DNA from: an uncultured Gammaproteobacteria bacterium
GTDB taxonomy: Bacteria; Patescibacteriota; Microgenomatia; Daviesbacterales; UBA10151
Assembly: GCA_964390595.1 (NCBI GenBank)
Contig: CAYMIA010000003.1
Span: 17,727-81,726, forward strand
DNA: 64,000 bases
Direction: 5' to 3'
Shown: in pieces, positions 18,525-64,000 of the stretch
Layout of the letters: the number at the start of each line of letters is the position of its first letter
Numbering within the stretch: the first letter of the stretch is position 1
Translations under genes and position numbers: made by a program
Notes under the pieces: model-generated
What the model was told of the DNA's origin: nothing
The model's input: the letters and a program-made list of their open reading frames with translations, nothing else
The model's database searches: none

Positions 18525-18527
18525 ACT

Positions 18528-19844: not shown

Positions 19845-19866
19845 TATTGAATGAAAGCTTGAAACT

Positions 19867-22695: not shown

Positions 22696-22721
22696 TCTGC
22701 TTGTGATGTTATACTGAATTT

Positions 22722-38251: not shown

Positions 38252-38692
38252 CTAAACGTCTAGAATGGCTTGTTTGGCATGAGTTTGAATAAATCTTTTT
38301 CTAGGAGCCACCTCATCACCCATCAACATAGTAAACACCTCATCAGCTGCTACCGCATCTTCAATGTCAACTTTCTTTAGGATTCTATTTTCCGGATTCA
38401 TAGTTGTCTCCCATAGCTGATCTGGATTCATCTCCCCCAAACCCTTATACCTTTGTATAATAATAGTTGCGCCTTTTTTAGGAGCTGGTGCTGCCTCCCC
38501 ATCTGCAGTTAGGCCATCGCCAGCAGTTGAACTAGGCAATGCTACATCATCAGTTGCTGGAGTGACTATAGATCCTCCCAGCGATTTCACAATCTTATCT
38601 CTCTCTTCATCAGAAAAAGCATATTGAAACTCCCTCCCTTTTTGCACTTTATACAAAGGTGGTTGAGCGATATAAATATACCCCAGGTTCAA
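38252..38692 (-). CDS. gyrB: DNA gyrase subunit B, C-terminal 146 aa, same frame as the upstream part
   Basis: [10 protein letters not shown]...[25 protein letters not shown]...FIQTHA. Starts 4 codons after the TAG, at a TTG. Confidence 0.8.
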
Positions 38693-38704
38693 AAGTTCGG
38701 GTAA

Positions 38705-40312
<1,608 letters not shown>

Positions 40313-42822: not shown

Positions 42823-42823
42823 T

Positions 42824-43903: not shown

Positions 43904-43906
43904 ACT

Positions 43907-45118: not shown

Positions 45119-45187
45119 TACACCTTTCAGCAACTTACAGCTTGCAGATAAGCTCACAACTTCTTTTTCTTAAGGCGGTTTTACCAC

Positions 45188-45218
45188 TTGACGGACCAAG
45201 AAGTTTTATGACTACAAT
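45188..45218 (+). promoter_or_regulatory. Candidate promoter for pilA (TTGACG ... TACAAT, 19-nt spacer) followed by strong RBS AAAGGAGGTGA at 45235-45245
   Basis: Hexamers read from the sequence. Spacer is longer than optimal. RBS is 10 nt before the ATG. Confidence 0.3.
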
Positions 45219-45255
45219 AGTTTAAGAAGTCTTTAAAGGAGGTGATTTAGTTAAA

Positions 45256-45810
45256 ATGAGAAAAACTGCTCAAGGTTTCACTTTAGTGGAACTTTTAATC
45301 GTTATAGCAATTATCGCTATCTTAGCAGCAGTAGTGGTCCTTATTGTCAATCCTCTTGAGTTAACTAGACGGGGTCGTGATGCCGCACGTCTTTCTGACT
45401 TTGCTAATTTACAACAGGCTATTAATATCGCTGTTCAAGAAGCAACCAACTCAACTCAATATTTACTTTGTGGTGGAGTTGCAGGTTCTTGTGCTGGTAA
45501 CTCTGTTACAGGCACTAGAAGCTCAGCTGGTACCGGATGGGCCAAAGTTAACCTAGGAACACAAACAAGTGTTTCTGTTCCAACCTTGCCTATTGATCCT
45601 ATCAATACAAATACTGGTGTAGGTAATGGTAACCACTACATTTACTGTTCAGATGGAAGTTCCTGGGAAATGGTTACAATCTTAGAGTCTGTACAACAAA
45701 ATTCTAAGATGTCAAATGATGGTGGATCTGATAATGCGAAGTATGAAGTTGGGTCTAGCCTTGCTTTGCTAGGTACTACAATGCCGGGAAGCGTAGCGTG
45801 TGCTTACTAA
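45256..45810 (+). CDS. pilA: Type IVa major pilin
   Basis: Leader MRKTAQG|FTLVELLIVIAIIAILAA with Glu+5. Strong SD. Two C-terminal Cys. Confidence 0.75.
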   Translation: MRKTAQGFTLVELLIVIAIIAILAAVVVLIVNPLELTRRGRDAARLSDFANLQQAINIAVQEATNSTQYLLCGGVAGSCAGNSVTGTRSSAGTGWAKVNLGTQTSVSVPTLPIDPINTNTGVGNGNHYIYCSDGSSWEMVTILESVQQNSKMSNDGGSDNAKYEVGSSLALLGTTMPGSVACAY

Positions 45811-45816
45811 GAGAAA

Positions 45817-46755
45817 ATGGTCTGGTTTTTAATATTAGGTTTTATAGTAGGTACAATTTTAGGAAGTTTAGTTCTCTGTATCGCGAGTAGAGCACTAACA
45901 AAGGAATCGTTTTGGGGGAGGTCGTACTGTGACTTTTGTAAAAAAAAGCTCAGCTGGTACGACCTTTTTCCTATTCTATCGTTTATTTTAAACAGAGGTA
46001 AATGCCGTTATTGCCATAAAAGACTTCCCGTCGAATACATCTTAGTTGAGATTCTCTGCGGCTTAATCATCGCTTATCTATTTTCCACATCAGGTTTGGA
46101 AAAAATTAATTTGGAAAATTTCACCCTCCAAAACTTGAGTCTCCTCCCCAGCCTATTTATTCTATCCGACCTGGCCTTTAAGACCGTCTTTATCGGAGTC
46201 TTAATCGCCACCTTCATTACCGATATAAAAACCGGTCTTATTCCCGATCGGATTACCTATCCCTCAATAGCAATTGCTTTTGTATATGGAATAATTTTGA
46301 CCATCGCTAAAATTGCCTGGGCCTATTATTCGATCGCCCAGTCTTCAATTGGCCAACTCCTTTTGCCTCCCCATTCGGATTATTTTTATAGACATGCCTA
46401 TATCATGGCTACGCCAGAGCTATTTTCCCTTTTGGCAGCGGTCATAGTAACCGTTTTTTTTGCTAGCCTAATCTTTCTTACTAAAGGACGTGGTATGGGT
46501 GGAGGCGATCTGAAATTGGGAATATTTATGGGACTGGTCTTGGGTTTCCCAAATGCTATCTTAGCCATTTTAGCCGCTTTTTTGCTTGGGTCAGTCGTCG
46601 GAGTAATTTTGCTAGCCTTGCAAAGAAAAAGTTTTGGGCAAACTATCCCATTTGGACCCTTCTTAACACTCGGAGGAATTATTGCGCTGTTTTGGGGTGA
46701 TCAAATTATCACTTGGTATGTGCACACCTTTGCTATCACAGGCTCTCTTTTCTAA
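45817..46755 (+). CDS. pilD: Prepilin peptidase (A24 family)
   Basis: CDFCKKKLSWYDL...CRYCHKRL zinc motif. Polytopic, with catalytic Asp pair. Confidence 0.8.
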   Translation: MVWFLILGFIVGTILGSLVLCIASRALTKESFWGRSYCDFCKKKLSWYDLFPILSFILNRGKCRYCHKRLPVEYILVEILCGLIIAYLFSTSGLEKINLENFTLQNLSLLPSLFILSDLAFKTVFIGVLIATFITDIKTGLIPDRITYPSIAIAFVYGIILTIAKIAWAYYSIAQSSIGQLLLPPHSDYFYRHAYIMATPELFSLLAAVIVTVFFASLIFLTKGRGMGGGDLKLGIFMGLVLGFPNAILAILAAFLLGSVVGVILLALQRKSFGQTIPFGPFLTLGGIIALFWGDQIITWYVHTFAITGSLF

Positions 46756-46758
46756 AAC

Positions 46759-47256
46759 TTGTCTTTTTTTAAGAAAGCTCGTAAAGTTAGATTAATGCCC
46801 AGAGAAAAAATTCCAAATTCCAAATTCCAAATTCCAAATGAAAGAGCTTTTACTCTGGTTGAACTGCTGGTAGCGATTGTTATTATCGGGATTGTTTTTG
46901 GAGTAGTCATCACATCCAATTCAGCAATTCAAAGAGGTGCCAGAGATGCTAAGCGCCAATCTGATTTGAGAACGATTCAAGGTGCACTTGAACAATACCA
47001 TTCTGATACCAGCTTCTATCCTGATACCTTGGCGCAGATAGCTAGCCCAACAGCCTATTTAGCTCCCATCCCTTCTGCTCCAACTCCTGGCAATAATTAT
47101 TCCTATGCTCCTCTACCAGCTACCCCAACTCAATGTACTGGTAACTGTACCAGGTATTGCCTAAACGCTCAGCTAGAAAATACACCCAATCCAGTCTATT
47201 CTGGGACATGCTCCCCACTACCAGCCCCCTACAACTTCGCAGTTACATCTCCATAA
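46759..47256 (+). CDS. Pilin-like protein (prepilin-type N-terminus NERA|FTLVELLVAIVII)
   Basis: Hydrophobic pilin helix with Glu+5. Heptanucleotide repeat in the 5' region. Confidence 0.55.
   Translation: MSFFKKARKVRLMPREKIPNSKFQIPNERAFTLVELLVAIVIIGIVFGVVITSNSAIQRGARDAKRQSDLRTIQGALEQYHSDTSFYPDTLAQIASPTAYLAPIPSAPTPGNNYSYAPLPATPTQCTGNCTRYCLNAQLENTPNPVYSGTCSPLPAPYNFAVTSP
46810..46837 (+). repeat. Heptanucleotide tandem repeat (ATTCCAA)x4 at the 5' end of a pilin-like gene
   Basis: Copies at 46810-16, 46817-23, 46824-30 and 46831-37. Not a multiple of 3. Confidence 0.85.
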
Positions 47257-47297
47257 ATTGCTTGTTCAAAGCTTAAAAATATGCTACGTTTAAGGTA

Positions 47298-47867
47298 ATG
47301 TCCGAAGCTAGTTTCACTTTAATGAGCAAAGCTCTTAAAGGAGATCGAGGTTTCACTTTAATTGAGATATTGGTTGCCATCGCCATTATTTCTATTGTCA
47401 CAGTGACCGTGGTCCCCAATTTAAGAAAGTTCAACTCTGATCAGGAGCTCTCCAATGATACCAATAAATTAATTCAAACTTTAAGGCAAGCTCAATCAAA
47501 CGCCCAATCCGGGCTTAAATGCCTTAGATCGCCCACAGCAACTGCTTCAGCTAATTGGATGGTTGGAGCGACTAATTCGGCGACCTTCTATATTCAACCC
47601 ACATGTAATGATGCTAACTTGGGCTTGGTTGCTCCAGCTATTGAAAAAACGACTTACACGCTGACAAATACCAGAATTACAGTCAATTCAACAGGTGTTG
47701 GAACCTGCTTATTGTCTCAACCGCAAGTGACATTTACTAAAAACATTGCCGCCATTACTAACGGTTGCCAATCTAACCCGCTATTTACCCTGACTCATCT
47801 AGTAACTAACAACACTAAATCGGTTTCAGTTGATCCCGGAGGAGCGATCTATGAAAAAACCAACTAA
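47298..47867 (+). CDS. Pilin-like protein (minor pilin/pseudopilin)
   Basis: ...MSKALKGDRG|FTLIEILVAIAII. The probable real start is the internal ATG at 47322. Confidence 0.6.
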   Translation: MSEASFTLMSKALKGDRGFTLIEILVAIAIISIVTVTVVPNLRKFNSDQELSNDTNKLIQTLRQAQSNAQSGLKCLRSPTATASANWMVGATNSATFYIQPTCNDANLGLVAPAIEKTTYTLTNTRITVNSTGVGTCLLSQPQVTFTKNIAAITNGCQSNPLFTLTHLVTNNTKSVSVDPGGAIYEKTN

Positions 47868-48381
47868 CGAATTAGGCCAATCACTCTTAGAAATTACCAT
47901 CACCATTGGCATCGCAGCTCTAATAATTACCGCCTTAGTCATAACCACGCTTGTCGGATTGAAAAATAGTCAATTAGCTCAAAAACAGTCTCAAGCGACC
48001 AAGTTAGCCCAGGAAGGTATCGAGCGACTCCGGGCGCTCAAAAACAACAACATTTCAATTACCGCTGGCGGCACTACTTATTATTGGTACGGCTCTCAAG
48101 GCACCACCATTTGGTCTCAAAATATTTTTTCTGGTGGTGCTTGTCAGTACTGTTATTGGAAGTTTAATTCTACCTGTCAAACTGATTTAAATAATTGTTT
48201 GGTGGCCTCAAGTGCTGCCGATAAAACTAGCTTAGAGTCAATCGGCAGTGGCTTCTTCCGCCAAATTAAGATTGAGGATGAAAATACCATCGATCAGAAA
48301 AAAATTACCAGCACAGTTAGTTGGACCGATTCAGCTGGAGCACATAAATCGCAACTTGTGACCTATTTAACGAATTATTAA
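47830..48381 (+). CDS. Pilin-like protein (probable start 47851, MKKPTNELG|QSLLEI)
   Basis: Hydrophobic N-terminal helix with Glu+5. Confidence 0.5.
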   Translation: MIPEERSMKKPTNELGQSLLEITITIGIAALIITALVITTLVGLKNSQLAQKQSQATKLAQEGIERLRALKNNNISITAGGTTYYWYGSQGTTIWSQNIFSGGACQYCYWKFNSTCQTDLNNCLVASSAADKTSLESIGSGFFRQIKIEDENTIDQKKITSTVSWTDSAGAHKSQLVTYLTNY

Positions 48382-48382
48382 T

Positions 48383-49012
48383 ATGAACCAGAAAGGCTTC
48401 ACTCTAGCTGAAGTATTAGTCGCCCTAAGTATAATTGGGGTAATTGGCGTTATTTTAGTATCTTTTTTAACTCAAACCTTTCGCGGTTCAAGCAAAACTC
48501 AGCTAATTGGAGTAATTAAGCAAAACGGTCAATCCGCTTTAAATATTATCGATCAAGCCAGCCGTTTCGCAACTGGTGTTACCTGCACCGATGATCCCAC
48601 CTTCAATAACGCCCATCTGCTCGCGGTTCACAATCAAGATGGCACTTATACCAGATTTAGGATTTGTAACAAAACAGATGCCACATGCAACGGTTCATTC
48701 CCCAATGGCTATATATCTCAAGACACTAATTCACTACCAAGTAGCTATACCGAATCGCAATTTTGCAACCCAGTTCCCAATCCAGATATCGTGTTTAACG
48801 CTACCAACTCTTCAAAGCTAACTGATACTGATCCTAAAACAGGGGTAGCAGTGACCAACGGCTACTTTAAGGTCATCAAAAATTCAGGCAACCATGATGT
48901 TGTCAATATTTATTTTCAATTAGGTCCCGCTTCAGGAACTGGGCTCGGATTCGAAAACCAGCTTGGTTCAACCAACAGTGCAACATTTCAAACATCCGTC
49001 GTGCTAAGATAA
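48383..49012 (+). CDS. Pilin-like protein (MNQKG|FTLAEVLVALSII)
   Basis: Classic prepilin cleavage motif. Confidence 0.65.
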   Translation: MNQKGFTLAEVLVALSIIGVIGVILVSFLTQTFRGSSKTQLIGVIKQNGQSALNIIDQASRFATGVTCTDDPTFNNAHLLAVHNQDGTYTRFRICNKTDATCNGSFPNGYISQDTNSLPSSYTESQFCNPVPNPDIVFNATNSSKLTDTDPKTGVAVTNGYFKVIKNSGNHDVVNIYFQLGPASGTGLGFENQLGSTNSATFQTSVVLR

Positions 49013-49022
49013 TTATAGATCG

Positions 49023-49937
49023 ATGACAAATACCAAATACCAAATACCAAATACCAAATACCAGCATGGGCAGGTTGTGATTTTATTGCTTCTTGTCATG
49101 CTAGTTGCGCTGACCATCGGGTTAACTATCACCCAGCGCTCGCTTTCTGATGTCTCGATCTCTAGCAAAACTGAACAATCTTCCCGGGCCTTCTCAGCAG
49201 CTGAGGCTGGTATTGAAAAGGCGTTACTAAATCAAACAGCGACAAACTCCGCTGATATTGGTAACCAATCTGGCTACACAGTCACAGTCGCCAGTAATCT
49301 ACCGAGCACTGGCCAGGCCCTAGAATACCCCAAACTGAGCAAAGACAGTATCGAGCAATACTGGTTAATTGATCCAAATATGGCCCTTTCCGCACTTAAC
49401 CTACCGGCCACTACTAATCCAAGTGGTTATGACGGCGGAACCATTGATATCTACTATGAGGATCCAGCTACACCTGTGGGCGACCTAGTGGCTTTGGAAG
49501 TGAATTTAATTACTAAGGACAACACCGGTCTATACAAAAAATACCAGTATCTCTATGACGAAGATGGCGGCCGTCGAACCAACAATAACTTCATTGCACC
49601 TACAGCGTGTAGCACGTTTACAATTAATACACTCTATTCCCCTACAATCAGCACATTAGACAGAACCTTTAAGTGTAAAATTACTGGCTTCAATATTAAA
49701 CCGAGCTCTGAGACATCAATTGCTTTAAGAATTAGGCTGCTCTACTCCTCAACTTCCCAACCTGTCGCAGTGGCTCCAGCTGCCACCAAATCGCTTCCTC
49801 CTCAAGTTTCGCTGTTTACCTCAGTTGGAACCGCTGGCCAAACTCAAAAAACCGTTCAAGTGTTTAAACATGTCAAAGACGTCCCTTTCTTCTTTGACTA
49901 TGCGATCTACTCAGTTTCTCAAATTAATAAGCTCTAA
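49023..49937 (+). CDS. Pilin-like protein lacking Glu+5 (PilX/GspK-like candidate)
   Basis: ...KYQHG|QVVILLLLVMLVAL. Heptanucleotide repeat immediately after the ATG. Confidence 0.5.
   Translation: MTNTKYQIPNTKYQHGQVVILLLLVMLVALTIGLTITQRSLSDVSISSKTEQSSRAFSAAEAGIEKALLNQTATNSADIGNQSGYTVTVASNLPSTGQALEYPKLSKDSIEQYWLIDPNMALSALNLPATTNPSGYDGGTIDIYYEDPATPVGDLVALEVNLITKDNTGLYKKYQYLYDEDGGRRTNNNFIAPTACSTFTINTLYSPTISTLDRTFKCKITGFNIKPSSETSIALRIRLLYSSTSQPVAVAPAATKSLPPQVSLFTSVGTAGQTQKTVQVFKHVKDVPFFFDYAIYSVSQINKL
49027..49054 (+). repeat. Heptanucleotide tandem repeat (CAAATAC)x4 at the 5' end of a pilin-like gene
   Basis: Copies at 49027-33, 49034-40, 49041-47 and 49048-54. Confidence 0.85.
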
Positions 49938-49939
49938 AA

Positions 49940-50353
49940 ATGGATAAAAGAATTTTTTTGAATCAGAGAGGACTTTCCCTGGCCGAGGTCCTACTGGTTA
50001 TTCTGCTAATCGGTTTTATCGTTCCAGTTATTTACAACATACCTAATTCAATCCGGCTAGTTGGTAGTAGCAATAAAACTTCTTTGGCCAAAGAGATCGC
50101 TTCCAAAGCGGTCGAAGACGCCCGGATTTTAACCTATGACAATTTAGCCCTCGGGCAATCAACTATTAATGATCCCCGCATCTCCAAGCTTCCTTCAGGA
50201 GCCGGATCTCTAAATGTGACCACCTGCTCTGCCCCAGTTTGCACCAACAATGAAGAAACCAAAAATATCTCTGTGACTATAAATTGGGATGAAAACGGAG
50301 CACCCAAGTCTTTTAAGTTAACCACACTAGTTTCATCTGGAGGTTTAAGATGA
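49940..50353 (+). CDS. Pilin-like protein (NQRG|LSLAEVLLVILLIG)
   Basis: Prepilin motif with Glu+5. Confidence 0.6.
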   Translation: MDKRIFLNQRGLSLAEVLLVILLIGFIVPVIYNIPNSIRLVGSSNKTSLAKEIASKAVEDARILTYDNLALGQSTINDPRISKLPSGAGSLNVTTCSAPVCTNNEETKNISVTINWDENGAPKSFKLTTLVSSGGLR

Positions 50354-50967
50354 AGCCAAAAAATGATTTCACCTTAATGAGCAAAGCTCTTAAAGGAAAC
50401 GGAGGTTTCACTTTAATCGAGGTCCTCTTGGTTGGAGTGATCGGTTCTGTAGTAGGTATATTACTGATATCAATTTTAGTTCAAAACAATGGTTTGTTTT
50501 CTACACATAGCGCCCAAGTCGCCCAGGGCGTCGGATTAAATGACATTATCAGCGAAGTTTCCAGCTCGATTAAAACAGCCTCTTCAGTCGCCCCCAGTTA
50601 TCCATCTACAAACCCAACTTATATTAGTTCTACCAATACGCTTGTTCTGTCGATTCCTTCAATTGATGCGTCAGGCAACCCCGTTGACAACACTCTAGAT
50701 TTCCTAGTTTTTACCTCCGATAACCAAAATCAAAAGATTCTAAGAGAGCTACTTTTCCCCGATCTAAGCAGCTCCCGTAAATCTATGAATAAAGTTTTGG
50801 CAACAACCCTATCTTCAATCAATTTCTCTTATTCAGATTTAAATGGCAATCCGGTTTCTCCAAGCGTAGCCAGTAAGATCAGCTACACCGTTAACCTCTC
50901 TACCAAAGCAGGTTACGGCACAGAGGAAGCTAGTGCTAGTTCGCAGGCCATCTTAAGAAACAATTAA
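50350..50967 (+). CDS. Pilin-like protein (…MSKALKGNGG|FTLIEVLLVGVIG; probable start 50377)
   Basis: Prepilin motif. Leader is paralogous to the 47298 gene. Confidence 0.6.
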   Translation: MKPKNDFTLMSKALKGNGGFTLIEVLLVGVIGSVVGILLISILVQNNGLFSTHSAQVAQGVGLNDIISEVSSSIKTASSVAPSYPSTNPTYISSTNTLVLSIPSIDASGNPVDNTLDFLVFTSDNQNQKILRELLFPDLSSSRKSMNKVLATTLSSINFSYSDLNGNPVSPSVASKISYTVNLSTKAGYGTEEASASSQAILRNN

Positions 50968-52752
50968 ATGAAAGTTACATTAAACCATTTTCAATCAGGG
51001 CAAGTAGCGGTTATGGCTTTAATTGTCTTGGGACTCATCATTATTAATACCCTAGCCATAGTCGGGGGTTCTTTAACATTTAGTGCTAATACTAAGTATT
51101 CAACAGAGGTCTCCCAAGCAACTAATCTAGCTGAAGCCGGTATTGATAAAGCTGTGGCCTCATTAAATGCCACTGGAGGTAGCTACATTGGGGAAAGCGA
51201 AACTTTCCTGGACCCCGGCTCCTTTAGCGTCTCAGTTACCAGCAAAGACGCATCGACGGATATCATTAAGTCAACCGGTTATGTGCCAAATAAAAGTAAT
51301 CCTAAATCTAAAAGGACCATTCAAATCCAAGCTTCTAAAGGAGTTGGCATTTCATTTGTTTATGGGATGTTAGTAGGTAATGGTGGTATGTCGATGGGAA
51401 ATGGCTCCCGCATTAACGGCTCTGTTTATTCCAATGGTAATATTACGGGTGGAAATAATGAAAATATCACCGGAGATGTCTTTATTGCCAGTGGAACTCA
51501 GCCAACGGCTGATCAACAAAACGATTCTACCTGCCCCAACTGTCTGGACTTTTTCTTCGGCAAAAATATATCCGGGAACAACCAACTTGATATCGCTCAA
51601 AGTTTTAAGCCAAGCACCGGCGCTGTAATTAATAAAGTCAGCTTGAAGTTAAAAAAAATTGGCTCCCCTCCTAACCTAACTGTCCGGTTACTGGGAGATA
51701 GTAGCGGCCAGCCTAACAAAAATAACATCCTAGCTTATGGAATACTTACTGCCAATTTAGTGACCAGTCAATATGGTTTTGTCGATGTCGCTTTCACTAG
51801 CCCACCCAGCCTAACCGCTGGTACTACCTATTGGATTCTGATCGATACCTCCTCTGATAACAACAATTACTGGTCCTGGTCTGAAGATACATTACAAGGA
51901 TATACTTATGGAACTGCGATGTGGTCTCCTGATTGGCAAGTTAGTTCTCCGGTCTGGAACAGTATCAGTGGTGACTTGTCCTTCAAGACCTGGATGGGTG
52001 GTGTGGCTACCTCAATCAGTATGAACAACGGTTCAGTTATTGGTGGCAACGTTCATGCTAACACTATTAGTGGTATCACCATCAATAAAGATGCTTACTA
52101 TCAAGTTATATCTAATTCCACAGTAGTTGGCACCTCTCATCCCAACTCCACTGACCCGGCCTCAATTGCCATGCCTATCTCTGAAGGCAACATCCTCAAA
52201 TGGCAGGAAGATGCTGAGGCCTACGGAGTCACAACTGGTGATATCACCGGTTGTCCGGCTAGAATGGGACCAGGAAAAATTATTGGCAATGTCACTACCT
52301 CAAACAGCTGCACCATCACAGTGACTACCCCAATCTTTATCACTGGTAATTTAACCTTTGGCAACTCAGCTGTATTTCAGATGGACCCTAATTTAGGATC
52401 CTCGTCTGGTGTAGTTATAGTTAATGGAACCACTATCTTTCAAAATTCAGATAATTTGCTTGGCACCGGGCAACCAGGTAGCTTCCTCACTCTTCTTTCA
52501 GCCTATAATTCTCAAACTCAAGGGGGGGACGCCATCAATACTGGAAACAGTTCAATAACAGGCATTTTATATGCTCCTTTAGGGATAATAACTCTGGCAA
52601 ACAACGCCAACTTCAAAGAAGCAGTGGCTTGGCAGATTAATATGGGTACAGGGACGACCTTAACTTATGATTCAGGCTTGATTAGTACCTTCTTTTCCAC
52701 CGGACCCGGAGGGTCATTCTCGATAGTTAAAGGTACCTATCAGATCAAATAA
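50968..52752 (+). CDS. Large pilin-like/pilus-associated protein with N-terminal pilin-type helix and Asn/Gly-rich beta-helix-like repeats
   Basis: FQSG|QVAVMALIVLGLII followed by GNGGMSMGNGSRINGSVYSNGNITGGNNENITGDVFIASG-type repeats. Confidence 0.45.
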   Translation: MKVTLNHFQSGQVAVMALIVLGLIIINTLAIVGGSLTFSANTKYSTEVSQATNLAEAGIDKAVASLNATGGSYIGESETFLDPGSFSVSVTSKDASTDIIKSTGYVPNKSNPKSKRTIQIQASKGVGISFVYGMLVGNGGMSMGNGSRINGSVYSNGNITGGNNENITGDVFIASGTQPTADQQNDSTCPNCLDFFFGKNISGNNQLDIAQSFKPSTGAVINKVSLKLKKIGSPPNLTVRLLGDSSGQPNKNNILAYGILTANLVTSQYGFVDVAFTSPPSLTAGTTYWILIDTSSDNNNYWSWSEDTLQGYTYGTAMWSPDWQVSSPVWNSISGDLSFKTWMGGVATSISMNNGSVIGGNVHANTISGITINKDAYYQVISNSTVVGTSHPNSTDPASIAMPISEGNILKWQEDAEAYGVTTGDITGCPARMGPGKIIGNVTTSNSCTITVTTPIFITGNLTFGNSAVFQMDPNLGSSSGVVIVNGTTIFQNSDNLLGTGQPGSFLTLLSAYNSQTQGGDAINTGNSSITGILYAPLGIITLANNANFKEAVAWQINMGTGTTLTYDSGLISTFFSTGPGGSFSIVKGTYQIK

Positions 52753-52787
52753 TTTACAATTGGTCTTAGACACTCTACAATAAAAGT

Positions 52788-53828
52788 ATGGCTGCCAAAA
52801 ACGTCGTTGGGTTGGATATTGGTTTTTCTTCAACCAAAATCGTTGTCTTATCTCACAAAGAAAAACCTCCGAGAATCGTCTCTCTAGGCTCAATTGCCAC
52901 TCCTCAGCCGGGTATCATCTCAGATGCCGACCTAGATTTGGACGCTGTCGCCCAAGCTCTAAAAAGTCTGGTCAGCGAAGTCAAAATCCCAGGAAAAGAC
53001 GTTGTTATTGCCTTGCCTGAGTCCAGAATTTTTACCCGAGTAGTTTATGACCTACCCTACCTCACCAATGACGAACTATCTCAAGCCATTAAATACGCAG
53101 CCGAAGAATTTGTGCCGATGTCGATTAATGATGTTAATTTAAATTATCAGGTGATTTTTAGATCACCTCAAAAAGGACCCAAAAGCCGGACCATTGTTCT
53201 AGTCATTGCCACTCCCAAAGCACTCCTTGAAAAATACTTAAAAGTTTTAACCATGGCTGATTTAAAGCCCGTAGCTATCGAAACAGAGCTTATCGCTGCC
53301 TCGAGATCTCTGGTTGGCAATAACCCCTATTCCCCCACTACCCTAATCATCAATCTCGGATCAACCACTACTGACTACGCAGTCGTTTCTGATGGTTTTA
53401 TCTTAATGACCAGATCAATTGCCACTGGCGGAAATGCCCTCACGCGGGCGATCGCCCAAACCTTTAACTTTGAACTAGTTCAGGCTGAAGAATATAAGAA
53501 AGTTTATGGGCTGCTCGAAGATCAACTTGAAGGTAAATTATTTCAAGCCCTCAAACCAATTTTTGATGTTATTGTCTTAGAAGCCAAAAGAGTGATCCAG
53601 GCTCATGAAGCCCAAAATCCGGATAAAGCAGTTAAAAGAGTCATCCTCACAGGAGGGGGAGCACAATTACCAGGAGTCGTACTTTATTTCGCTAATTCAC
53701 TCGGACTTGAGGTCCAGGAGGCTGATCCCTGGGCGGCTGTAACTAAGGAGGATAACATTAAATCAAAACTGAATGCTAGCGCGGCACTATATTCAGTAGC
53801 TGCCGGACTTGCGCTTCGGGAAGACTAA
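52788..53828 (+). CDS. pilM: Type IV pilus assembly protein PilM (actin-like ATPase fold)
   Basis: VVGLDIGFSSTKIVVL and GGGAQLPGV motifs. Confidence 0.75.
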   Translation: MAAKNVVGLDIGFSSTKIVVLSHKEKPPRIVSLGSIATPQPGIISDADLDLDAVAQALKSLVSEVKIPGKDVVIALPESRIFTRVVYDLPYLTNDELSQAIKYAAEEFVPMSINDVNLNYQVIFRSPQKGPKSRTIVLVIATPKALLEKYLKVLTMADLKPVAIETELIAASRSLVGNNPYSPTTLIINLGSTTTDYAVVSDGFILMTRSIATGGNALTRAIAQTFNFELVQAEEYKKVYGLLEDQLEGKLFQALKPIFDVIVLEAKRVIQAHEAQNPDKAVKRVILTGGGAQLPGVVLYFANSLGLEVQEADPWAAVTKEDNIKSKLNASAALYSVAAGLALRED

Positions 53829-53833
53829 CTATT

Positions 53834-54376
53834 ATGGGCAAAATTCAGATCAACTTACTTCCAAGCGAAGTCGTCCTTTTAGAAAAGGATATTGAAAAAA
53901 GAGCTCTGGCTATTCGGGCGAGCGTCGCCATTTTAGTTATCGTGACCATCCTTAGTCTGACTGCTCTAGTTATTCGCCTAACTCAGAAAATCAGCCTCAC
54001 AACTAACAAACATCAGCTAGATCTGGTCACAGAAAAGGTTCAAGCTCTCAAAGAACAGGAGGGTGTAGTCTCAATCTTAAAACAGCGAGTTAATTCTATC
54101 TCGGGTATCTTGGGCGAAACTAGCAAACAAGAAAAGGCCTTTAAAACCTTAATTGATATATTTCCTAAAAACATCAAGCTACTTTCCATGAGTATCGATA
54201 AAACAGGTAAATTAGATCTCAACTGTGAAACTGAAAATATCACTGATTTAGATGATTTTTTTCAAAGCATTAGTACGCAAGATAGCAATAAAAAGTTTTC
54301 TAAAGTTTTAGTCAATAGCTTGTCTCAAGGAAGCAATGGAAAAATCCGTTTTGATGTTGAGATATCACCTATCTGA
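53834..54376 (+). CDS. pilN: PilN-like bitopic protein
   Basis: Single TM helix after a short cytoplasmic N-terminus. Position follows pilM. Confidence 0.5.
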   Translation: MGKIQINLLPSEVVLLEKDIEKRALAIRASVAILVIVTILSLTALVIRLTQKISLTTNKHQLDLVTEKVQALKEQEGVVSILKQRVNSISGILGETSKQEKAFKTLIDIFPKNIKLLSMSIDKTGKLDLNCETENITDLDDFFQSISTQDSNKKFSKVLVNSLSQGSNGKIRFDVEISPI

Positions 54377-55083
54377 TGGAAAAAGAGATTAAAAAATATT
54401 ATCAGAGATATCAAGTAGTTATCTTGCCTTCAGGGGCATCATTCATCGCTCTAGTGCTTATCGCATTGTTAATAGTGCCAAGCCTTTTTACATATAGTAA
54501 AAACGCGAAACAGCAAACAGAGATCGAACAAAAAACTAAATTACTCAGCTCAAAAGCCACTCAGCTTCAAGCCATTAATGTAACCGCCCTTAAAACTGAC
54601 TTAAATAACACAATTAAGGTTTTACCTCCCGAAAAAGAGGTGACCGCCGCCATCAATCAAGTTCAAATTTTAGCGAGTGCCAATACAATACAAATTCTAT
54701 CATTGGAATACTCTTCAATTGGCGGTATCGATAAATCAGACAATTTTACCATCCGCATGGAAGTTGTTGGTCCGCTTACATCGATGAGAAACTTTGGCGA
54801 CAGTCTGCGGGAATCTGCCAGGGTGATGAAAATCAAAGATATCGAAATTAATGGACTCAGGGGAGGTGTTAATTATAGCGCCACTCTAACAATCTCAGTT
54901 TATTATCAAGCCGTACCCAGCTTGATTGGAGAAGTTGATGCCCCCTTCGTACCCCTTTCTCAATCGGACCAAGAATTATTGGCCAAAATTAACAACGCCT
55001 TAGAAAAATTCGGATCAGTTAACGCTCCATCTGAGGACTTTACCGGCACCGGGCCAGTTGGCAAACCAGATCCTTTTCAATGA
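54376..55083 (+). CDS. pilO: PilO-like bitopic protein
   Basis: Single TM helix and coiled-coil. Start overlaps the pilN stop. Confidence 0.45.
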   Translation: MEKEIKKYYQRYQVVILPSGASFIALVLIALLIVPSLFTYSKNAKQQTEIEQKTKLLSSKATQLQAINVTALKTDLNNTIKVLPPEKEVTAAINQVQILASANTIQILSLEYSSIGGIDKSDNFTIRMEVVGPLTSMRNFGDSLRESARVMKIKDIEINGLRGGVNYSATLTISVYYQAVPSLIGEVDAPFVPLSQSDQELLAKINNALEKFGSVNAPSEDFTGTGPVGKPDPFQ

Positions 55084-60124: not shown

Positions 60125-60153
60125 TTGCTTTTAGACTTGCTATAGGTTATAAT
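60125..60153 (+). promoter_or_regulatory. Sigma70-type promoter TTGCTT-17-TATAAT, 13 nt upstream of the 60167 ATG (near-leaderless)
   Basis: Hexamers at 60125-60130 and 60148-60153. Confidence 0.4.
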
Positions 60154-60166
60154 TTAGCCTCAAGTT

Positions 60167-62284
60167 ATGGAACATTCCACAGAAAAACAAACCCTTAATC
60201 CAATTGCCCAAAGAGAGCAGGAAATTAGCCAGCTTCAGGCCGAAATTTTGCACAGACAACAAATCATCGCTAAATTTGGTAAAAAAAGCCGTCTCGCTCA
60301 ATCCATCACAATAAAGCAGCTGGAAAGAAAAATTGACAAACTTCAAGATGAATTAAGCAGCTTTTACTCACTAAGAAGAGATGTTCCAGTTGTGGAACCC
60401 CCTGTCTCTATTGGTTTAGCTGAGCCTGAGCTAACTTCTAGACCTTGTGTTCCATTTGAAGAAGTTACTCATATCGTTTCTGGATCAGAAATTATAATTT
60501 CCACAGTTACTCCAGTCGAACTAAGTTCTGAATCAGAAATTGATGAAATTATCCGCTTATATCAAGAATTAGGTCGGGAAGTTCCCAATAATATTTATTC
60601 AATGGATCAGGAGAGCCGAAGAAGGTTGCTCCAAGCTTTAAGGATAGCTAAAAAAATCCCAGCCGATTTAAGAGACCATGTCAGTTCAAATAGCTATGCT
60701 GAAACTCAACGAATTCCTCTAAATGATCAACCAATTGAACCAACTCCAGCGAGAAGAGAGCCAGTTTCTCCCCGCCCTGAGGATGACATAGAAATTCCCC
60801 CATTCTTGAGGAGATCACACTTTATTCAGAGCGACCAGCCTACTCCAGCTCCAGAGGTAGCAGAAATCATTGAGGCTGAAGAAGAAGGTCGTGCCGCTGC
60901 TCAAGCTGCATCCACTGATTTGCAAGCCCTCTTTGCTTCTCTGCGCATCCCAGAGCCAGAACCAAATAGAGATGATATTGTAATACCTCCATTTCTGAGA
61001 CGACTTCCAGTTTTGGAACAAGCTCCTGATCCAGATCCAATCATACGTTTTGAACCAGAGATTAAGGTATCCGAGGATGAACCCAGGGAAGAGCTGTCAG
61101 CGGACAGGCTTTGTGAAATTATCGATGATGAGTATCCAAAAGATGGCACCCTTTATCTTCATCGCCACATTCAAGATTTTTTTCCCGAGTATCGAGCCCA
61201 ATTCCCAGGCCTGAATGATTCAGTTCATTTTTTCAGATGTCTGGGTCAATCCCTTCATGCCACTGGTAATAGGAATTTGAGTGATAAAGCAGCTCTGGCC
61301 TTTGAGTATGCCTTTGATAATTCCGAGGATGATGAATTAGTTGATGCAGATGGCACTCCTGTTAGAGGAAAGGCCATTGATGCTATTTGGTGGGTTGATG
61401 CTGCTCATAGTCATGTCAGTCAACCGATGTGGACCCCTGCACGTTCTGTCTGGCTTCAGCTAAAAGAGGCTACTATCAGAGAAACAAGAGTGGTTATTGA
61501 GGAGCAAATTGCCAATTGCCAAGCTTTATCTCCTAAAGCCAAGAATTACAAACAAACTGAATCTGCTCTTAAAAAAGCCCGCAAACAAGCCAGGGATCTC
61601 GAACTTTGGCTGGAAGCTTCTGAATCTAAGTTAGAGCCAGAAACCGCACCAAAGGGCAGAGACCGATTTAACTTCTTTAAAAGAAATAGACAAGGTATCC
61701 TTTTGGCTGCCGGCTTAACTGTTTTGTGTTGCTTAGGTGGTCTAACTTCAGCCTCTGTGGTCGAGGTAGTAGCACCCTCATCAGCTCCCAGGGCTGAACA
61801 GGTCACTCCAACCAGCTTAGCAACTGCTGTCAATGTTGCTCCTTCAGTTCGCTCAACTGCTACCCCTACTAAAACCCCCATTATTGTTCATGGAACTCAT
61901 ATAGTGACTAATCCCAATATAGTCAACTCCCCAATCGAAGATATTAAAACTTATGAGAAGCCAGATGTTCTATTTGGTGATAAATCTAGCCTCAATGGAC
62001 TGGCTCAATCATTAATGGCTAAATATTCCTTTGGCATTGATGACTTTCAACCCAATAGCCCTGACGAGCAAACCAGATATAATTCAATGGTCAGATTTGA
62101 CCAAGCCTACTACAAGAACGCAGACGGGCATGATGTTTTTGTCAAATTAGTCGAAGAAGATTTAAGAGCTGTCAACGATCAACTAGTCTTTGATTCTGGC
62201 AATCCAGATCTCTTTTACCATAATGGAATAGCAACTGTCCAAGTGCCTGAACAGACTATTGCCGCGCTAAAGACTCTTAAGTAA
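60167..62284 (+). CDS. Bitopic membrane protein: N-terminal coiled-coil, two FtsZ-C-terminal-peptide-like motifs (DDIEIPPFLRR, DDIVIPPFLRR), TM helix, conserved C-terminal extracytoplasmic domain
   Basis: Motifs and TM helix (GILLAAGLTVLCCLGGLTSASVV) read from the translation. Confidence 0.5.
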   Translation: MEHSTEKQTLNPIAQREQEISQLQAEILHRQQIIAKFGKKSRLAQSITIKQLERKIDKLQDELSSFYSLRRDVPVVEPPVSIGLAEPELTSRPCVPFEEVTHIVSGSEIIISTVTPVELSSESEIDEIIRLYQELGREVPNNIYSMDQESRRRLLQALRIAKKIPADLRDHVSSNSYAETQRIPLNDQPIEPTPARREPVSPRPEDDIEIPPFLRRSHFIQSDQPTPAPEVAEIIEAEEEGRAAAQAASTDLQALFASLRIPEPEPNRDDIVIPPFLRRLPVLEQAPDPDPIIRFEPEIKVSEDEPREELSADRLCEIIDDEYPKDGTLYLHRHIQDFFPEYRAQFPGLNDSVHFFRCLGQSLHATGNRNLSDKAALAFEYAFDNSEDDELVDADGTPVRGKAIDAIWWVDAAHSHVSQPMWTPARSVWLQLKEATIRETRVVIEEQIANCQALSPKAKNYKQTESALKKARKQARDLELWLEASESKLEPETAPKGRDRFNFFKRNRQGILLAAGLTVLCCLGGLTSASVVEVVAPSSAPRAEQVTPTSLATAVNVAPSVRSTATPTKTPIIVHGTHIVTNPNIVNSPIEDIKTYEKPDVLFGDKSSLNGLAQSLMAKYSFGIDDFQPNSPDEQTRYNSMVRFDQAYYKNADGHDVFVKLVEEDLRAVNDQLVFDSGNPDLFYHNGIATVQVPEQTIAALKTLK

Positions 62285-62349
62285 ACTTCTTAGGTAATTC
62301 TTACCCAGCCATTACCAATCCCTAGATCTTATAGTTTATTATTTACTTC

Positions 62350-63696
62350 ATGATTGAGGCAGCTAGAATCTATCCAGCCACCCCAGACAACCTTGATTAT
62401 TATAAAAAATTGGGCTTTGCCAAAGAGCTAAGAGAGACTATCTTTGCCGATATTAAACAAAACGGTTCAAATCAACAAATTGACTTCATTCTATCTCAAG
62501 TCAACCAAGCCCTGCTAAATGTTGAAGATGACTCAGTTAGCTTGACGGATTTAAGATCCCAGATTGATCAGATAGTTAACCCCCTTCCTGATAATGTTAT
62601 TCAATTTTCAGGCCGGTCTAAACAGCCCAAAAAGTTTACACCTGTCTCTGAAATTCTACAGCCTCCGGAAGTCCTACCTCCTCCAATCGAAAGACCACAA
62701 GAGCGCTGGTGGAATAATCTTAGGAATATTATTAGAAGCCGTAGAACTACATCTACCTCAGGTCCTGGAGGGTCAACAACAAGTAAAAGTACCTATACAT
62801 CAAGTGCCAGTCCCCCCGTTGGACCCACAGAGCCTCCTAGTCCGTATATGGCGTGGGTAGCCCGCGCAGCTGGCATCTCAGCGGTTTTACTTCTATTAAT
62901 ATATGGCGCATCTACCGGTGGCTTTGAAAGATTTGATAAGGATACCAGAGAATTTGCCAATTCAGTCGCAGCTAGATTAAATTTAGTTGATGAAAAAACT
63001 AAGGTAGGTGTCAACGCTCTTGCTAATGCTACAGTTCCACCCCCACCCTTAAAAGTTGAACCTCCCCAAGTTAATATTAATGTGCAACCTCCTCAAGTTG
63101 AACCGGCCAAAGCTCAACCTCCGTTAAACCTAACCAGCCCCGTTGTGGAGCCTGGCTTAAATCAAAAATTAGAAAATAGTCAAATAGGCGGCCAAAAAGT
63201 TGGTATGCGGTTTACTGAATATAGAGATCCAGACGTCTTTAGACAAGGTTTAGACAAACAAGACTATGATAGCGACTTCTCCAGCCTAAAAGGCCGGTCT
63301 GAGGCCATTTGGGCGATGGATTGGGCAAATATCCATGATTTTAGACCCAATGACCCAGACGAAAGAGTCAGGTTTGCTTCAATGGTCCGTTTTAATGACG
63401 CCTGGAAAACTGAACCAGGTATGAGTGAAGCACAAGCGATCGCCCTGCACAAAGAGCAAGTTCTCAGAATGAGAAACGCAATTAAGGGCGAAACTTTGCA
63501 CTGGATGGAAGATTACCGGCCCTTTTACAATCTCAGTAATGCACCAGATTATCCGTTCATCCACGTCGGGAATGCCCAAGCTGGTACAGTGGATTACTTG
63601 ATTTTTCGAAAAAACCCTCAGGGAATTCCCAACAAAATCGTTGAACCAGCTAACCCCAAAGCAGTCTTTGAAACTGCCAAAAAGAATTTCGCCTAA
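62350..63696 (+). CDS. Bitopic membrane protein, paralog of the preceding gene in its C-terminal domain
   Basis: Shared motif DFxPNxPDExxRxxSMVRFxxA. Pro-rich linker. TM helix WVARAAGISAVLLLLIYGA. Confidence 0.5.
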   Translation: MIEAARIYPATPDNLDYYKKLGFAKELRETIFADIKQNGSNQQIDFILSQVNQALLNVEDDSVSLTDLRSQIDQIVNPLPDNVIQFSGRSKQPKKFTPVSEILQPPEVLPPPIERPQERWWNNLRNIIRSRRTTSTSGPGGSTTSKSTYTSSASPPVGPTEPPSPYMAWVARAAGISAVLLLLIYGASTGGFERFDKDTREFANSVAARLNLVDEKTKVGVNALANATVPPPPLKVEPPQVNINVQPPQVEPAKAQPPLNLTSPVVEPGLNQKLENSQIGGQKVGMRFTEYRDPDVFRQGLDKQDYDSDFSSLKGRSEAIWAMDWANIHDFRPNDPDERVRFASMVRFNDAWKTEPGMSEAQAIALHKEQVLRMRNAIKGETLHWMEDYRPFYNLSNAPDYPFIHVGNAQAGTVDYLIFRKNPQGIPNKIVEPANPKAVFETAKKNFA

Positions 63697-63725: not shown

Positions 63726-64000
63726 GTGACCTATTTTATTTTACTAATTGCTGAGGTACTCTCATTGTTTGTTTTATCTAGGTTTCTAAGCCGGGCTTTA
63801 TCTGAGCTGATTTATAGATTGACCCATTCACATAAAATCGTGATCTATTCACTTGCTGCGCTCTTTTTACCTGGAACAGTTATTCATGAAGCAGCTCATG
63901 TTCTTGTAGCCAATCTGTTGCTTGTGCCAACTGGCAAAGTGGAATTTTTGCCAGTCTCTGAAGGCGAGGTAGTTAAACTGGGAAGCGCTGAAGTAGCTCA
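63726..64000 (+). CDS. Partial ORF (runs off window): hydrophobic protein with HExxH motif (VIHEAAHVLVA), putative membrane zinc metallopeptidase-like
   Basis: Open frame from a GTG at 63726 to the window end. No ATG start identified. Confidence 0.25.
   Translation, partial: MTYFILLIAEVLSLFVLSRFLSRALSELIYRLTHSHKIVIYSLAALFLPGTVIHEAAHVLVANLLLVPTGKVEFLPVSEGEVVKLGSAEVA

What the first reader, a model, noticed from the sequence alone, without database searches (positions are those of the whole stretch)
60167..63696. Tandem paralogous bitopic proteins; the first displays two FtsZ C-terminal-peptide mimics (DDIEIPPFLRR / DDIVIPPFLRR)
The FtsZ conserved C-terminal peptide (E. coli DYLDIPAFLRKQ; B. 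subtilis DTLDIPTFLRNR) is the docking site for FtsA, ZipA, SepF, EzrA and MinC. Here a non-FtsZ protein has an N-terminal coiled coil, two near-perfect copies ~75 aa apart in its cytoplasmic part, a TM helix, and a C-terminal extracytoplasmic domain. That domain is shared with the next gene (motif DFxPNxPDExxRxxSMVRFxxA). This could be a membrane protein that recruits or competes for FtsZ-CTP-binding partners, a divisome or envelope-coupling factor, in a lineage with a reduced divisome.
Basis: partly seen in the sequence, partly recalled or inferred. Interest (0 to 1): 0.6.

Follow-up and report, generated by a model that had tools for sequence, protein, structure and literature searches.

The report
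Orphan membrane protein with FtsZ-tail-like peptides
A one-of-a-kind membrane protein from an uncultured ultra-small (CPR) bacterium carries two selectively preserved copies of the short peptide that the division protein FtsZ uses to dock onto its partners, so it may plug into or compete with the cell-division machinery, but this is untested.

Summary
ORF 60167-62284 (705 aa) contains DDIEIPPFLRR and DDIVIPPFLRR, 63 aa apart rather than ~75, in a Pro/Glu-rich region modelled at low confidence. A single TM helix (aa ~510-532) and a ~170-aa C-terminal part follow. ORF 62350-63696 (448 aa) shares only that C-terminal domain.

The repeat is not chance: 10/11 identity against a maximum of 8/11 in 1000 shuffles. 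Eight of the nine nucleotide differences are synonymous and the flanks are unrelated, so the peptide itself is under selection. A genuine metagenomic FtsZ ends in DDIDIPPFLRR, 10/11 identical to each copy. The one difference falls on the Asp before Ile-Pro.

Both proteins are true ORFans: only self-hits among 5.8 billion and 1.84 billion proteins, no Pfam family, and unusable AlphaFold models. Codon usage is native. The neighbourhood is housekeeping genes plus a type IV pilus cluster, not dcw. The organism's own FtsZ, FtsA and SepF could not be retrieved.

FtsZ-tail-like peptides also sit at the termini of unrelated phage proteins, so the peptide is a portable docking motif.

Best reading (about 0.4): a bivalent, membrane-anchored FtsZ-tail mimic that engages FtsZ-tail receptors.

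The parts
60148..60153 (+). Perfect TATAAT hexamer 14 nt upstream of the p1 ATG. It is a possible -10 element implying a very short leader. No Shine-Dalgarno sequence is evident.
   Evidence: Read directly from the sequence. The consensus scan reported no full -35/-10 pair here, so this is inference only.
60167..62284 (+). p1: 705-aa ORFan, predicted bitopic (N-in/C-out) membrane protein.
   Evidence: ORF. Codon-usage score in frame is 0.33, equal to housekeeping genes, while all other frames are negative. Only self-hits. No family.
60194..60382 (+). aa 10-72: two long helices (possible coiled coil or helical hairpin).
   Evidence: AlphaFold single-sequence model, helices 10-36 and 39-72, block pLDDT 67-88. 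The weak PHROG hits here are probably coiled-coil noise.
60422..60640 (+). aa 86-158: local similarity to the N-terminal region (aa 34-108) of the ATP-grasp L-amino-acid ligase LdmS (PDB 7r8p).
   Evidence: phmmer against PDB, 26.9 bits, E 1.3e-5. Sub-threshold hits to the same region from NCBIfam NF047900 (E 0.07) and Pfam DUF6031 (E 0.19). No ATP-grasp core is present. Its meaning is unknown.
60782..60814 (+). FtsZ-tail-like peptide 1, DDIEIPPFLRR (aa 206-216), in a Pro/Glu-rich region modelled at low confidence.
   Evidence: It is 10/11 identical to the genuine FtsZ tail of L019. pLDDT is below 50 across aa 153-297.
60971..61003 (+). FtsZ-tail-like peptide 2, DDIVIPPFLRR (aa 269-279).
   Evidence: Eight of the 9 nucleotide differences from copy 1 are synonymous.
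61694..61762 (+). p1 transmembrane helix (aa ~510-532), preceded by KGRDRFNFFKRNRQG.
   Evidence: Kyte-Doolittle 19-mer windows up to 2.03. The model is helical across this segment. Orientation follows from the positive-inside rule and is an inference.
61952..62281 (+). p1 C-terminal (predicted extracytoplasmic) domain shared with p2. Its core is DFQPNSPDEQTRYNSMVRFDQA.
   Evidence: BLASTP; alignment A3. The fold is unknown (pLDDT ~30).
62350..63696 (+). p2: 448-aa ORFan, single-TM protein, 65 nt downstream of p1 on the same strand. It has no FtsZ-tail-like peptide.
   Evidence: codon score 0.27.
62845..62913 (+). p2 transmembrane helix (aa ~166-188).
   Evidence: Hydropathy. Charge flanks are ambiguous, so orientation is inferred from homology of the C-terminal domain with p1.
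63220..63693 (+). p2 C-terminal domain homologous to the C-terminal domain of p1. Its core is DFRPNDPDERVRFASMVRFNDA.

Best explanation
p1 is a lineage-specific, natively encoded bitopic membrane protein of a CPR/Patescibacteria bacterium.

Its cytoplasmic part presents two copies of a short linear motif that imitates the conserved C-terminal peptide of FtsZ. The copies sit in a flexible linker, downstream of long helices that may oligomerise the protein.

The proposed mechanism is inferred, not shown. The peptides dock into the same receptor sites that bind the FtsZ tail; in CPR these are most likely FtsA and/or SepF. Single FtsZ-tail peptides bind weakly (tens of micromolar). Two copies per chain, possible oligomerisation and membrane anchoring would supply avidity.

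Two consequences are possible. p1, with its extracytoplasmic C-terminal domain, may be recruited to the division site. Alternatively, p1 may compete with FtsZ for its membrane tethers and so modulate Z-ring anchoring.

p2 is a paralogue of the outer domain only and lacks the peptides. It is probably co-transcribed and would share the extracellular ligand without the cytoplasmic link.
For: Shown:
- The motif is duplicated at 10/11 identity, far beyond chance.
- Synonymous sites are saturated and the flanks are unrelated, which indicates selection on the peptide itself.
- Each copy is 10/11 identical to a real FtsZ tail (L019).
- It closely resembles the tails of M. tuberculosis (DDVDVPPFMRR, PMC10213792), E. 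coli and B. subtilis (DIPAFLR and DIPTFLR, PMC6657595).
- The Ile and Leu positions critical for ZipA, FtsA and MinC binding are retained. D373E and A376P variants of E. coli FtsZ still function with FtsA/ZipA (PMC4117426).
- Free tail peptides bind at 20-80 uM, so multivalency is meaningful.
- The motif region is Pro/Glu-rich and modelled at low confidence, like the FtsZ linker.
- The motifs lie on the predicted cytoplasmic side of a single TM helix.
- Codon usage is native.

Independent precedent for the peptide on non-FtsZ carriers:
- A 75-aa protein with one TM helix and a C-terminal DDIDIPPFLRRQ, on a phage-like contig (L020).
- Terminal D[DE]xDIPxFLRR peptides on MT-A70 methyltransferases and small proteins in viral contigs: 22 hits against 6 for a reversed-order control.
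Against: - There is no binding evidence of any kind.
- The organism's FtsZ, FtsA and SepF are unknown.
- The Asp immediately before Ile-Pro, described as fully conserved in FtsZ tails (PMC9939409), is Glu in copy 1 and Val in copy 2.
- Both copies are internal, whereas the FtsZ peptide is near the C-terminus.
- p1 has no homologue in 5.8 billion or 1.84 billion proteins, so conservation across species cannot support function. A protein found in only one MAG may be evolutionarily short-lived.
- The genomic context is not division-related.
- The receptor for the phage-borne look-alike peptides is also unknown. They show portability, not the identity of the partner.
Confidence: 0.4

Rival explanations
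1. The peptide is a functional short linear motif, but its likeness to the FtsZ tail is coincidental or only partial. It would bind a different, lineage-specific partner, or make an intramolecular or membrane contact unrelated to cell division.
For: - The Asp reported as invariant in FtsZ tails is not kept; it is E in copy 1 and V in copy 2.
- The motifs are internal.
- No division genes lie nearby.
- p1 is an ORFan, so nothing ties it to a conserved pathway.
- An 11-residue motif carries limited information.
Against: - 10/11 identity to a genuine FtsZ tail.
- The exact DDIxIPPFLRR pattern occurs only twice in the whole JGI metagenome collection. One is an FtsZ and the other a TM-anchored small protein.
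- The retained positions are those that matter for FtsA/ZipA binding.
Confidence: 0.3
2. The peptides are protease or unfoldase recognition signals. The FtsZ tail is also listed as a ClpX degron, so the motifs could make p1 a regulated ClpXP substrate or a ClpX adaptor or decoy.
For: - The E. coli FtsZ C-terminus AKEPDYLDIPAFLRKQAD is listed as a ClpXP degron (PMC8138137), and ClpX is among the tail binders (PMC4117426).
- The phage look-alike peptides sit within 3-12 residues of the N- or C-termini, which is typical of degrons.
Against: - In p1 both copies are internal, more than 200 aa from either end, which is atypical for ClpX tags.
- Two conserved copies are not needed for a degron.
- ClpX was not identified in the window.
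Confidence: 0.12
3. p1/p2 is a remnant or cargo of a mobile element or phage, and p1 acts as a membrane-anchored cell-division inhibitor by sequestering FtsZ-tail receptors.
For: - A phage-like contig encodes a TM-anchored protein with the same peptide (L020).
- The gene is an ORFan.
- A tyrosine recombinase is present elsewhere in the window at 27129-28076.
Against: - Codon usage is indistinguishable from housekeeping genes and GC content shows no anomaly.
- The flanks are recG and housekeeping genes, with no phage genes.
- The integrase is 32 kb away.
- p1 is large (705 aa) with an elaborate outer domain, unlike small phage inhibitors.
Confidence: 0.08
4. p1 and p2 are evolutionarily young or decaying ORFs without a specific function, and the repeat is a leftover of an internal duplication.
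For: - Singleton clusters, with no homologues anywhere.
- Very low AlphaFold confidence.
Against: - Uninterrupted ORFs of 705 and 448 aa with strong frame-specific codon bias.
- The repeat shows 8 synonymous changes against 1 non-synonymous, with completely diverged flanks. This is the opposite of a recent neutral duplication.
- The C-terminal domain is conserved between the two genes at 40-48% identity.
Confidence: 0.07

Closest known systems
FtsZ conserved C-terminal peptide (CTC/CTP, the 'grappling hook')
   Same: The sequence D-D-[ILV]-x-[IV]-P-x-F-[LM]-R-[RK], preceded by a disordered acidic, Pro-rich linker. Each copy is 10/11 identical to a genuine FtsZ tail. The critical Ile, Pro, Phe and Leu are conserved.
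   Different: The carrier is not FtsZ: it has no tubulin/FtsZ GTPase domain. The peptide is present twice and internally. The Asp before I-P is replaced by E or V. The carrier is itself membrane-anchored.
FtsN of Proteobacteria (bitopic; cytoplasmic N-terminal peptide binds FtsA; periplasmic SPOR domain binds septal peptidoglycan). This comparison is from general knowledge.
   Same: Works-like analogy: an N-in bitopic protein whose short cytoplasmic peptide would engage a Z-ring tether, while an outer domain faces the envelope.
   Different: There is no sequence or domain relationship and no SPOR or other Pfam domain. The FtsN peptide is unrelated in sequence and binds a different FtsA subdomain. 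Membership is not claimed.
MapZ/LocZ of streptococci (bitopic; disordered cytoplasmic N-terminal domain contacts FtsZ; extracellular domain binds the wall). MapZ is cited among FtsZ-tail binders in PMC9939409.
   Same: The overall layout is the same: disordered cytoplasmic part, one TM helix, then an extracellular domain. Both would couple the envelope to the divisome.
   Different: MapZ binds FtsZ, whereas p1 imitates FtsZ and would therefore bind FtsZ's partners instead. No homology was detected.
Phage and metagenome proteins carrying terminal FtsZ-tail-like peptides
   Same: The same peptide class sits on non-FtsZ carriers. L020 is also membrane-anchored.
   Different: These carriers are unrelated: MT-A70 DNA methyltransferases and small basic proteins. 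Each has a single copy at the extreme N- or C-terminus and keeps the canonical Asp. They come from high-GC phage contigs, not CPR. I found no description of them in the literature searched.

Membership tests
FtsZ/tubulin family | Tubulin/FtsZ GTPase domain (PF00091) and FtsZ C-terminal domain (PF12327) | tested here: not met
   The Pfam scan of p1 at E<=1 gives only two sub-threshold, unrelated hits.
FtsZ C-terminal peptide (as a motif class) | Core D-[IV]-P-x-F-[LIM]-[RK] with conserved Asp, Pro and Phe (PMC9939409) | tested here: inconclusive
   Pro, Phe, the Ile before Pro, Leu and Arg-Arg are all present in both copies. The Asp is Glu in copy 1 and Val in copy 2. D373E is tolerated for FtsA/ZipA function in E. 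coli. No data were found for Val at this position.
FtsZ C-terminal peptide (as a motif class) | Located at or near the extreme C-terminus after an intrinsically disordered linker | tested here: not met
   The copies are at aa 206-216 and 269-279 of 705. The disordered-like context is met: Pro/Glu-rich and pLDDT below 50.
FtsZ C-terminal peptide (as a motif class) | Binds FtsA, ZipA, SepF, MinC, ZapD, SlmA or ClpX | not testable with these tools
   No complex prediction is available, and the partner proteins of this organism could not be retrieved.
ATP-grasp L-amino-acid ligase (LdmS-like) | ATP-grasp fold with nucleotide-binding core | tested here: not met
   Only aa 86-158 resemble LdmS aa 34-108. 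The NCBIfam score is 11.8 against a cut-off of 475. No ATP-grasp Pfam domain was found.
dcw/divisome gene cluster member | Located among mra/mur/fts genes | tested here: not met
   The neighbours are recG, rpmF, nusB, rnc, rpsP, trmD and a type IV pilus cluster. Further away lie gyrA/B, murA and holB. No FtsZ is present in the window.
PilM-PilN type interaction (the FtsA-like ATPase PilM encoded 6 kb upstream) | N-terminal I-N-L-L-P peptide of PilN as the PilM ligand | tested here: not met
   The window's PilN (53834-54376) has its own canonical MGKIQINLLPSEV. The p1 motif differs and is not N-terminal.

The most novel reading that the evidence does not exclude
FtsZ-tail mimicry may be an unrecognised, recurrent strategy. 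A portable D-D-x-[DE]-I-P-x-F-L-R-R peptide would be grafted onto non-FtsZ proteins to hijack or share FtsZ's docking sites. Examples here are a CPR bitopic membrane protein carrying two copies, and, independently, phage MT-A70 methyltransferases, small phage proteins and a phage TM mini-protein. In p1 this would give a membrane-spanning adaptor that links an extracellular domain to FtsA or SepF, or titrates them, in an organism that lacks the classical late-divisome adaptors.
Probability: 0.3. Interest if true: 0.7.

Novelty: new variant of a known kind. Interest (0 to 1): 0.5.

Why it matters
The FtsZ C-terminal peptide is the central docking hub of bacterial division and a drug-target interface. 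In the literature searched here it is treated as a feature of FtsZ itself. A non-FtsZ membrane protein that displays the peptide twice would be a natural competitor or adaptor for FtsZ-tail receptors. It would also give a handle on how division is wired to the envelope in CPR bacteria, whose divisome is poorly understood.

The side observation that phage proteins carry the same peptide at their termini suggests a broader phenomenon. This can be tested directly with peptides and simple localisation assays.

The limitation is that p1 is known from a single genome and has no homologues. Its general importance therefore rests on the motif class rather than on this protein.

Tried and rejected
**Homologue searches**
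- The word-index search of 5.8 billion proteins with p1, with p2 and with a two-row motif alignment returned self only or nothing.
- A full phmmer search of 1.84 billion representatives returned self only.
- Both cluster look-ups gave singletons.

**Family libraries**
- Pfam, NCBIfam and PHROGs gave nothing above threshold.
- PADLOC was not tried.

**PDB**
- The only hit was the LdmS N-terminal similarity.
- p2 gave nothing.
- A motif profile against PDB did not retrieve FtsZ tails, because HMMER filters drop such short matches.

**Structure**
- AlphaFold of p1 gave pLDDT 43, and the shared C-domain gave pLDDT 39.
- Both models are too poor to use, so no fold search was run.

**Getting the rest of the genome**
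- The exact protein look-ups found nothing on record.
- An exact 51-mer in genome contigs gave no match.

**Synteny**
- Thirteen recG loci from related and other genomes contain nothing resembling p1 or p2.
- They contain no FtsZ.
- They contain no tail-like motifs, apart from one weak chance match in L003.

**Motif searches elsewhere**
- tblastn of the motif against GenBank phages and PLSDB plasmids gave no hit at E<=10.
- The 8-mer DDI[EV]IPPF in IMG/VR gave 5 hits, and none continues with LRR.

**Literature**
- No paper in the searched library describes IPPFLRR or FtsZ-tail mimicry by other proteins.

**Ideas considered and rejected**
- p1 as a PilM ligand: PilN has its own INLLP motif.
- Alternative genetic code: long ORFs are intact under table 11.
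- Recent horizontal acquisition: codon usage is native.


Full report
**1. What is in the sequence**

The two ORFs are exactly as reported. p1 is 60167-62284(+), 705 aa. p2 is 62350-63696(+), 448 aa, 65 nt downstream on the same strand.

p1 contains DDIEIPPFLRR at aa 206-216 (nt 60782-60814) and DDIVIPPFLRR at aa 269-279 (nt 60971-61003). The copies start 63 aa apart, not ~75. They are the only I-P-x-F-L-[RK] matches in all six reading frames of the 64-kb window. A degenerate DNA pattern finds these 2 sites against 0 in 100 shuffles.

A 10/11 self-match of an 11-mer never arose in 1000 shuffles of p1, where the maximum was 8/11. The analytic expectation is 3e-6.

The two copies differ at 9 of 33 nucleotides. 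Eight differences are synonymous and one is non-synonymous (E/V). The 20 residues on either side share only 2/20 and 1/20 identities. So an 11-residue island has been held constant while everything around it, and its own silent sites, diverged. That is the signature of selection on the peptide. It is not a recent DNA duplication.

**2. Architecture**

- p1 has one hydrophobic segment (aa ~508-538). It is preceded by KGRDRFNFFKRNRQG, so N-in/C-out is predicted. p2 has one hydrophobic segment at aa ~165-192.
- The single-sequence AlphaFold model of p1 is poor overall (mean pLDDT 43). It does give fairly confident long helices at aa 10-72 and around aa 430-523.
- The model has pLDDT below 50 throughout aa 153-297, the Pro/Glu-rich stretch that holds both motifs.
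- The C-terminal ~110-160 residues of p1 and p2 are homologous: 48% identity over 44 aa (E 4e-11), with weaker matches to the ends. Elsewhere the two proteins are unrelated.
- A weak similarity between p1 aa 347-420 (cytoplasmic side) and the start of the p2 C-domain is inconclusive (27% identity, pairwise E 5e-4).
- p1 aa 86-158 resemble the N-terminal region of the ATP-grasp ligase LdmS (PDB 7r8p, E 1.3e-5). No ATP-grasp core is present.

**3. Are these real, native genes?**

The frame-specific codon-usage score is 0.33 for p1 and 0.27 for p2. Housekeeping genes of the window score 0.31-0.35. All five other frames of p1 and p2 are negative. GC content is unremarkable. These are genuine genes of this genome and show no sign of recent import.

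**4. Organism and context**

RecG, which is divergent from p1, finds its best relatives in Pacebacteria, Nealsonbacteria, Colwellbacteria and Brennerbacteria MAGs at 41-45% identity. The organism is therefore a CPR/Patescibacteria bacterium.

The window contains:
- a complete type IV pilus cluster at 41116-55083 (PilB, PilT, PilC, pilins, prepilin peptidase, PilM/N/O);
- trmD, rpsP, rnc, nusB, rpmF and recG;
- further upstream, gyrA/B, murA, holB, a histidine kinase, and large surface proteins with CBM60 and dockerin hits.

There is no FtsZ and no dcw-like context. PilN carries its own canonical INLLP ligand for PilM, so p1 is not an obvious PilM partner.

**5. Relatives**

There are none. p1 and p2 return only themselves from the 5.8-billion-protein index. 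p1 returns only itself from an exhaustive phmmer search of 1.84 billion representatives. Each is a singleton cluster. Pfam, NCBIfam and PHROGs give nothing significant. recG neighbourhoods in 13 other genomes hold nothing similar. Cross-species conservation therefore cannot be used. The within-gene comparison of the two motif copies is the only evolutionary evidence.

**6. Is the peptide really FtsZ-tail-like?**

I scanned the JGI metagenome collection for DNA encoding DDIxIPPFLRR and found two matches.

The first is a bona fide FtsZ C-terminus ending ...ANVDDIDIPPFLRRRQEGGNF. It is 10/11 identical to each p1 copy (L019).

Published tails agree:
- E. coli DYLDIPAFLRKQAD (PMC4117426);
- B. subtilis DIPTFLR (PMC6657595);
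- M. tuberculosis DDDDVDVPPFMRR (PMC10213792).

A low-GC FtsZ from IMG/VR ends EFDIPTFLRKK (L050).

The conserved core is described as 8 residues with invariant Asp, Pro and Phe (PMC9939409). p1 keeps Pro, Phe, and the Ile and Leu that are critical for ZipA, FtsA and MinC binding. It replaces the Asp with Glu in copy 1 and Val in copy 2.

In E. coli, FtsZ D373E and A376P still work with FtsA and ZipA but lose MinC sensitivity (PMC4117426). Relative to the E. coli tail, copy 1 carries exactly these two changes. I found no data for Val at the Asp position.

**7. The peptide on other non-FtsZ carriers**

The second metagenome match is a 75-aa ORF. It has an N-terminal TM helix, a short linker and a C-terminal DDIDIPPFLRRQ. 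Its contig also encodes a family-A DNA polymerase and a nuclease-like ORF, so it looks phage-derived (L020).

A scan of IMG/VR for D[DE]xDIPxFLR gave 22 loci, against 6 for a control pattern with the same codons in reversed order. Many hits are clearly non-random:
- Five MT-A70 DNA methyltransferases carry DD[LT]DIPxFLRR 3-12 residues from their C-termini.
- Three families of small proteins carry it 3-10 residues from their N-termini.

I found no description of this in the searchable literature. The peptide therefore behaves as a portable docking or recognition module. That makes mimicry in p1 more credible. It does not say which receptor is used, and the FtsZ tail is also listed as a ClpX degron (PMC8138137).

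**8. Most likely mechanism**

This is inferred, not shown. p1 would be a membrane-anchored, bivalent FtsZ-tail mimic, possibly of higher valency if the N-terminal helices oligomerise. Free tail peptides bind their partners at only 20-80 uM, so duplication and membrane tethering would supply avidity.

Docking to FtsA or SepF would have one of two effects. It could bring p1 and its outer domain to the division site, a works-like analogy to FtsN or MapZ. Or it could compete with FtsZ for its tethers. p2 shares only the outer domain.

I put this at about 0.4. The rivals are:
- a functional motif with a different partner (0.3);
- a ClpX-type recognition signal (0.12);
- a mobile-element division inhibitor (0.08);
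- a functionless young ORF (0.07).

**9. What could not be done**

- The organism's own FtsZ, FtsA and SepF could not be retrieved.
- No complex prediction was possible.
- Both AlphaFold models were too poor for fold searches.

**10. Verdict**

It remains unproven, and it is weakened by the lost Asp, the internal position of the motifs and the lack of any homologue.

Novelty: a new variant of a known kind, namely the FtsZ docking peptide on a non-FtsZ, membrane-anchored carrier. Interest: 0.5.

Noticed in passing
L020:3578-3805 (-) (JGI contig Ga0272444_10037233): A 75-aa ORF with an N-terminal TM helix, a short linker and a C-terminal DDIDIPPFLRRQ (FtsZ-tail-like). The contig also encodes a family-A DNA polymerase and a PD-(D/E)XK-like nuclease, so it is probably phage. 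This may be a membrane-anchored FtsZ-tail mimic, possibly a division inhibitor.
   Followed up: partly
IMG/VR loci L023:1389-3737, L025:8978-11035(-), L027:8679-10049, L031:3067-4740, L040:3538-5007: Five MT-A70 DNA methyltransferases in viral contigs end in DD[LT]DIPxFLRR, 3-12 residues from the C-terminus. This is an FtsZ-tail-like terminal peptide on a DNA-modifying enzyme. There were 22 motif hits against 6 for a reversed-order control. I found no description in the literature searched.
   Followed up: partly
IMG/VR loci L026:2810-3577 (=L032, L033), L021:7163-7480 (=L030, L034), L037:3477-3815(-) (=L039): Three families of small, basic, unannotated phage proteins start with an FtsZ-tail-like peptide: MKRPRPNPDDLDIPDFLRRQ..., M..SDDMDIPDFLRIP... 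and MNDELDIPEFLRRPK.... None matches Pfam or PHROGs.
   Followed up: partly
window 38705-38707 (- strand), within gyrB (38252-40294): gyrB is interrupted by an in-frame TAG in the conserved segment ...[30 protein letters not shown].... The reading frame continues unchanged after it. This could be a sequencing or assembly error, a pseudogene, or read-through in an essential gene.
   Followed up: partly
window 60422-60640 (p1 aa 86-158): Local similarity to the N-terminal region of the S. aureus ATP-grasp ligase LdmS (PDB 7r8p aa 34-108; 26.9 bits, E 1.3e-5 against PDB), including a shared G[RK]EVPN[NS]IY stretch. The ATP-grasp core is absent.
   Followed up: partly
window 61205-61426 (p1 aa 347-420) versus p2 aa 268-333: Weak similarity (27% identity over 74 aa, pairwise E 5e-4) between a cytoplasmic-side segment of p1 and the start of the p2 outer domain. 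It may be a third, degenerate copy of part of the shared domain on the opposite side of the membrane. If real, it would complicate the topology model.
   Followed up: partly
window 63750-64000 (+), ORF running off the window end: The gene downstream of p2 encodes a hydrophobic protein with an HEAAH (HExxH) motif: ...LPGTVIHEAAHVLVANLL.... It may be a membrane metalloprotease.
   Followed up: no
window 14194-25673 (+): A run of large proteins (343-983 aa), mostly without Pfam families. One has a CBM60 carbohydrate-binding hit and one a weak dockerin hit. They may be surface proteins.
   Followed up: no
L050:180-1301 and 1430-2470 (IMG/VR UViG_3300043544_000415, GC 0.32): A low-GC FtsZ with the tail EFDIPTFLRKK is followed immediately by a tyrosine-recombinase-like ORF and small lysine-rich ORFs. 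The 'viral' contig may be an integrated element next to ftsZ in a small-genome bacterium. L049 carries a tailless 313-aa FtsZ.
   Followed up: no
L013 (CAZMNS010000038.1): The closest RecG relative (69% identity over the C-terminal 220 aa) sits in a MAG labelled 'uncultured Gammaproteobacteria'. All other close relatives are CPR, so this contig may be mis-binned.
   Followed up: no
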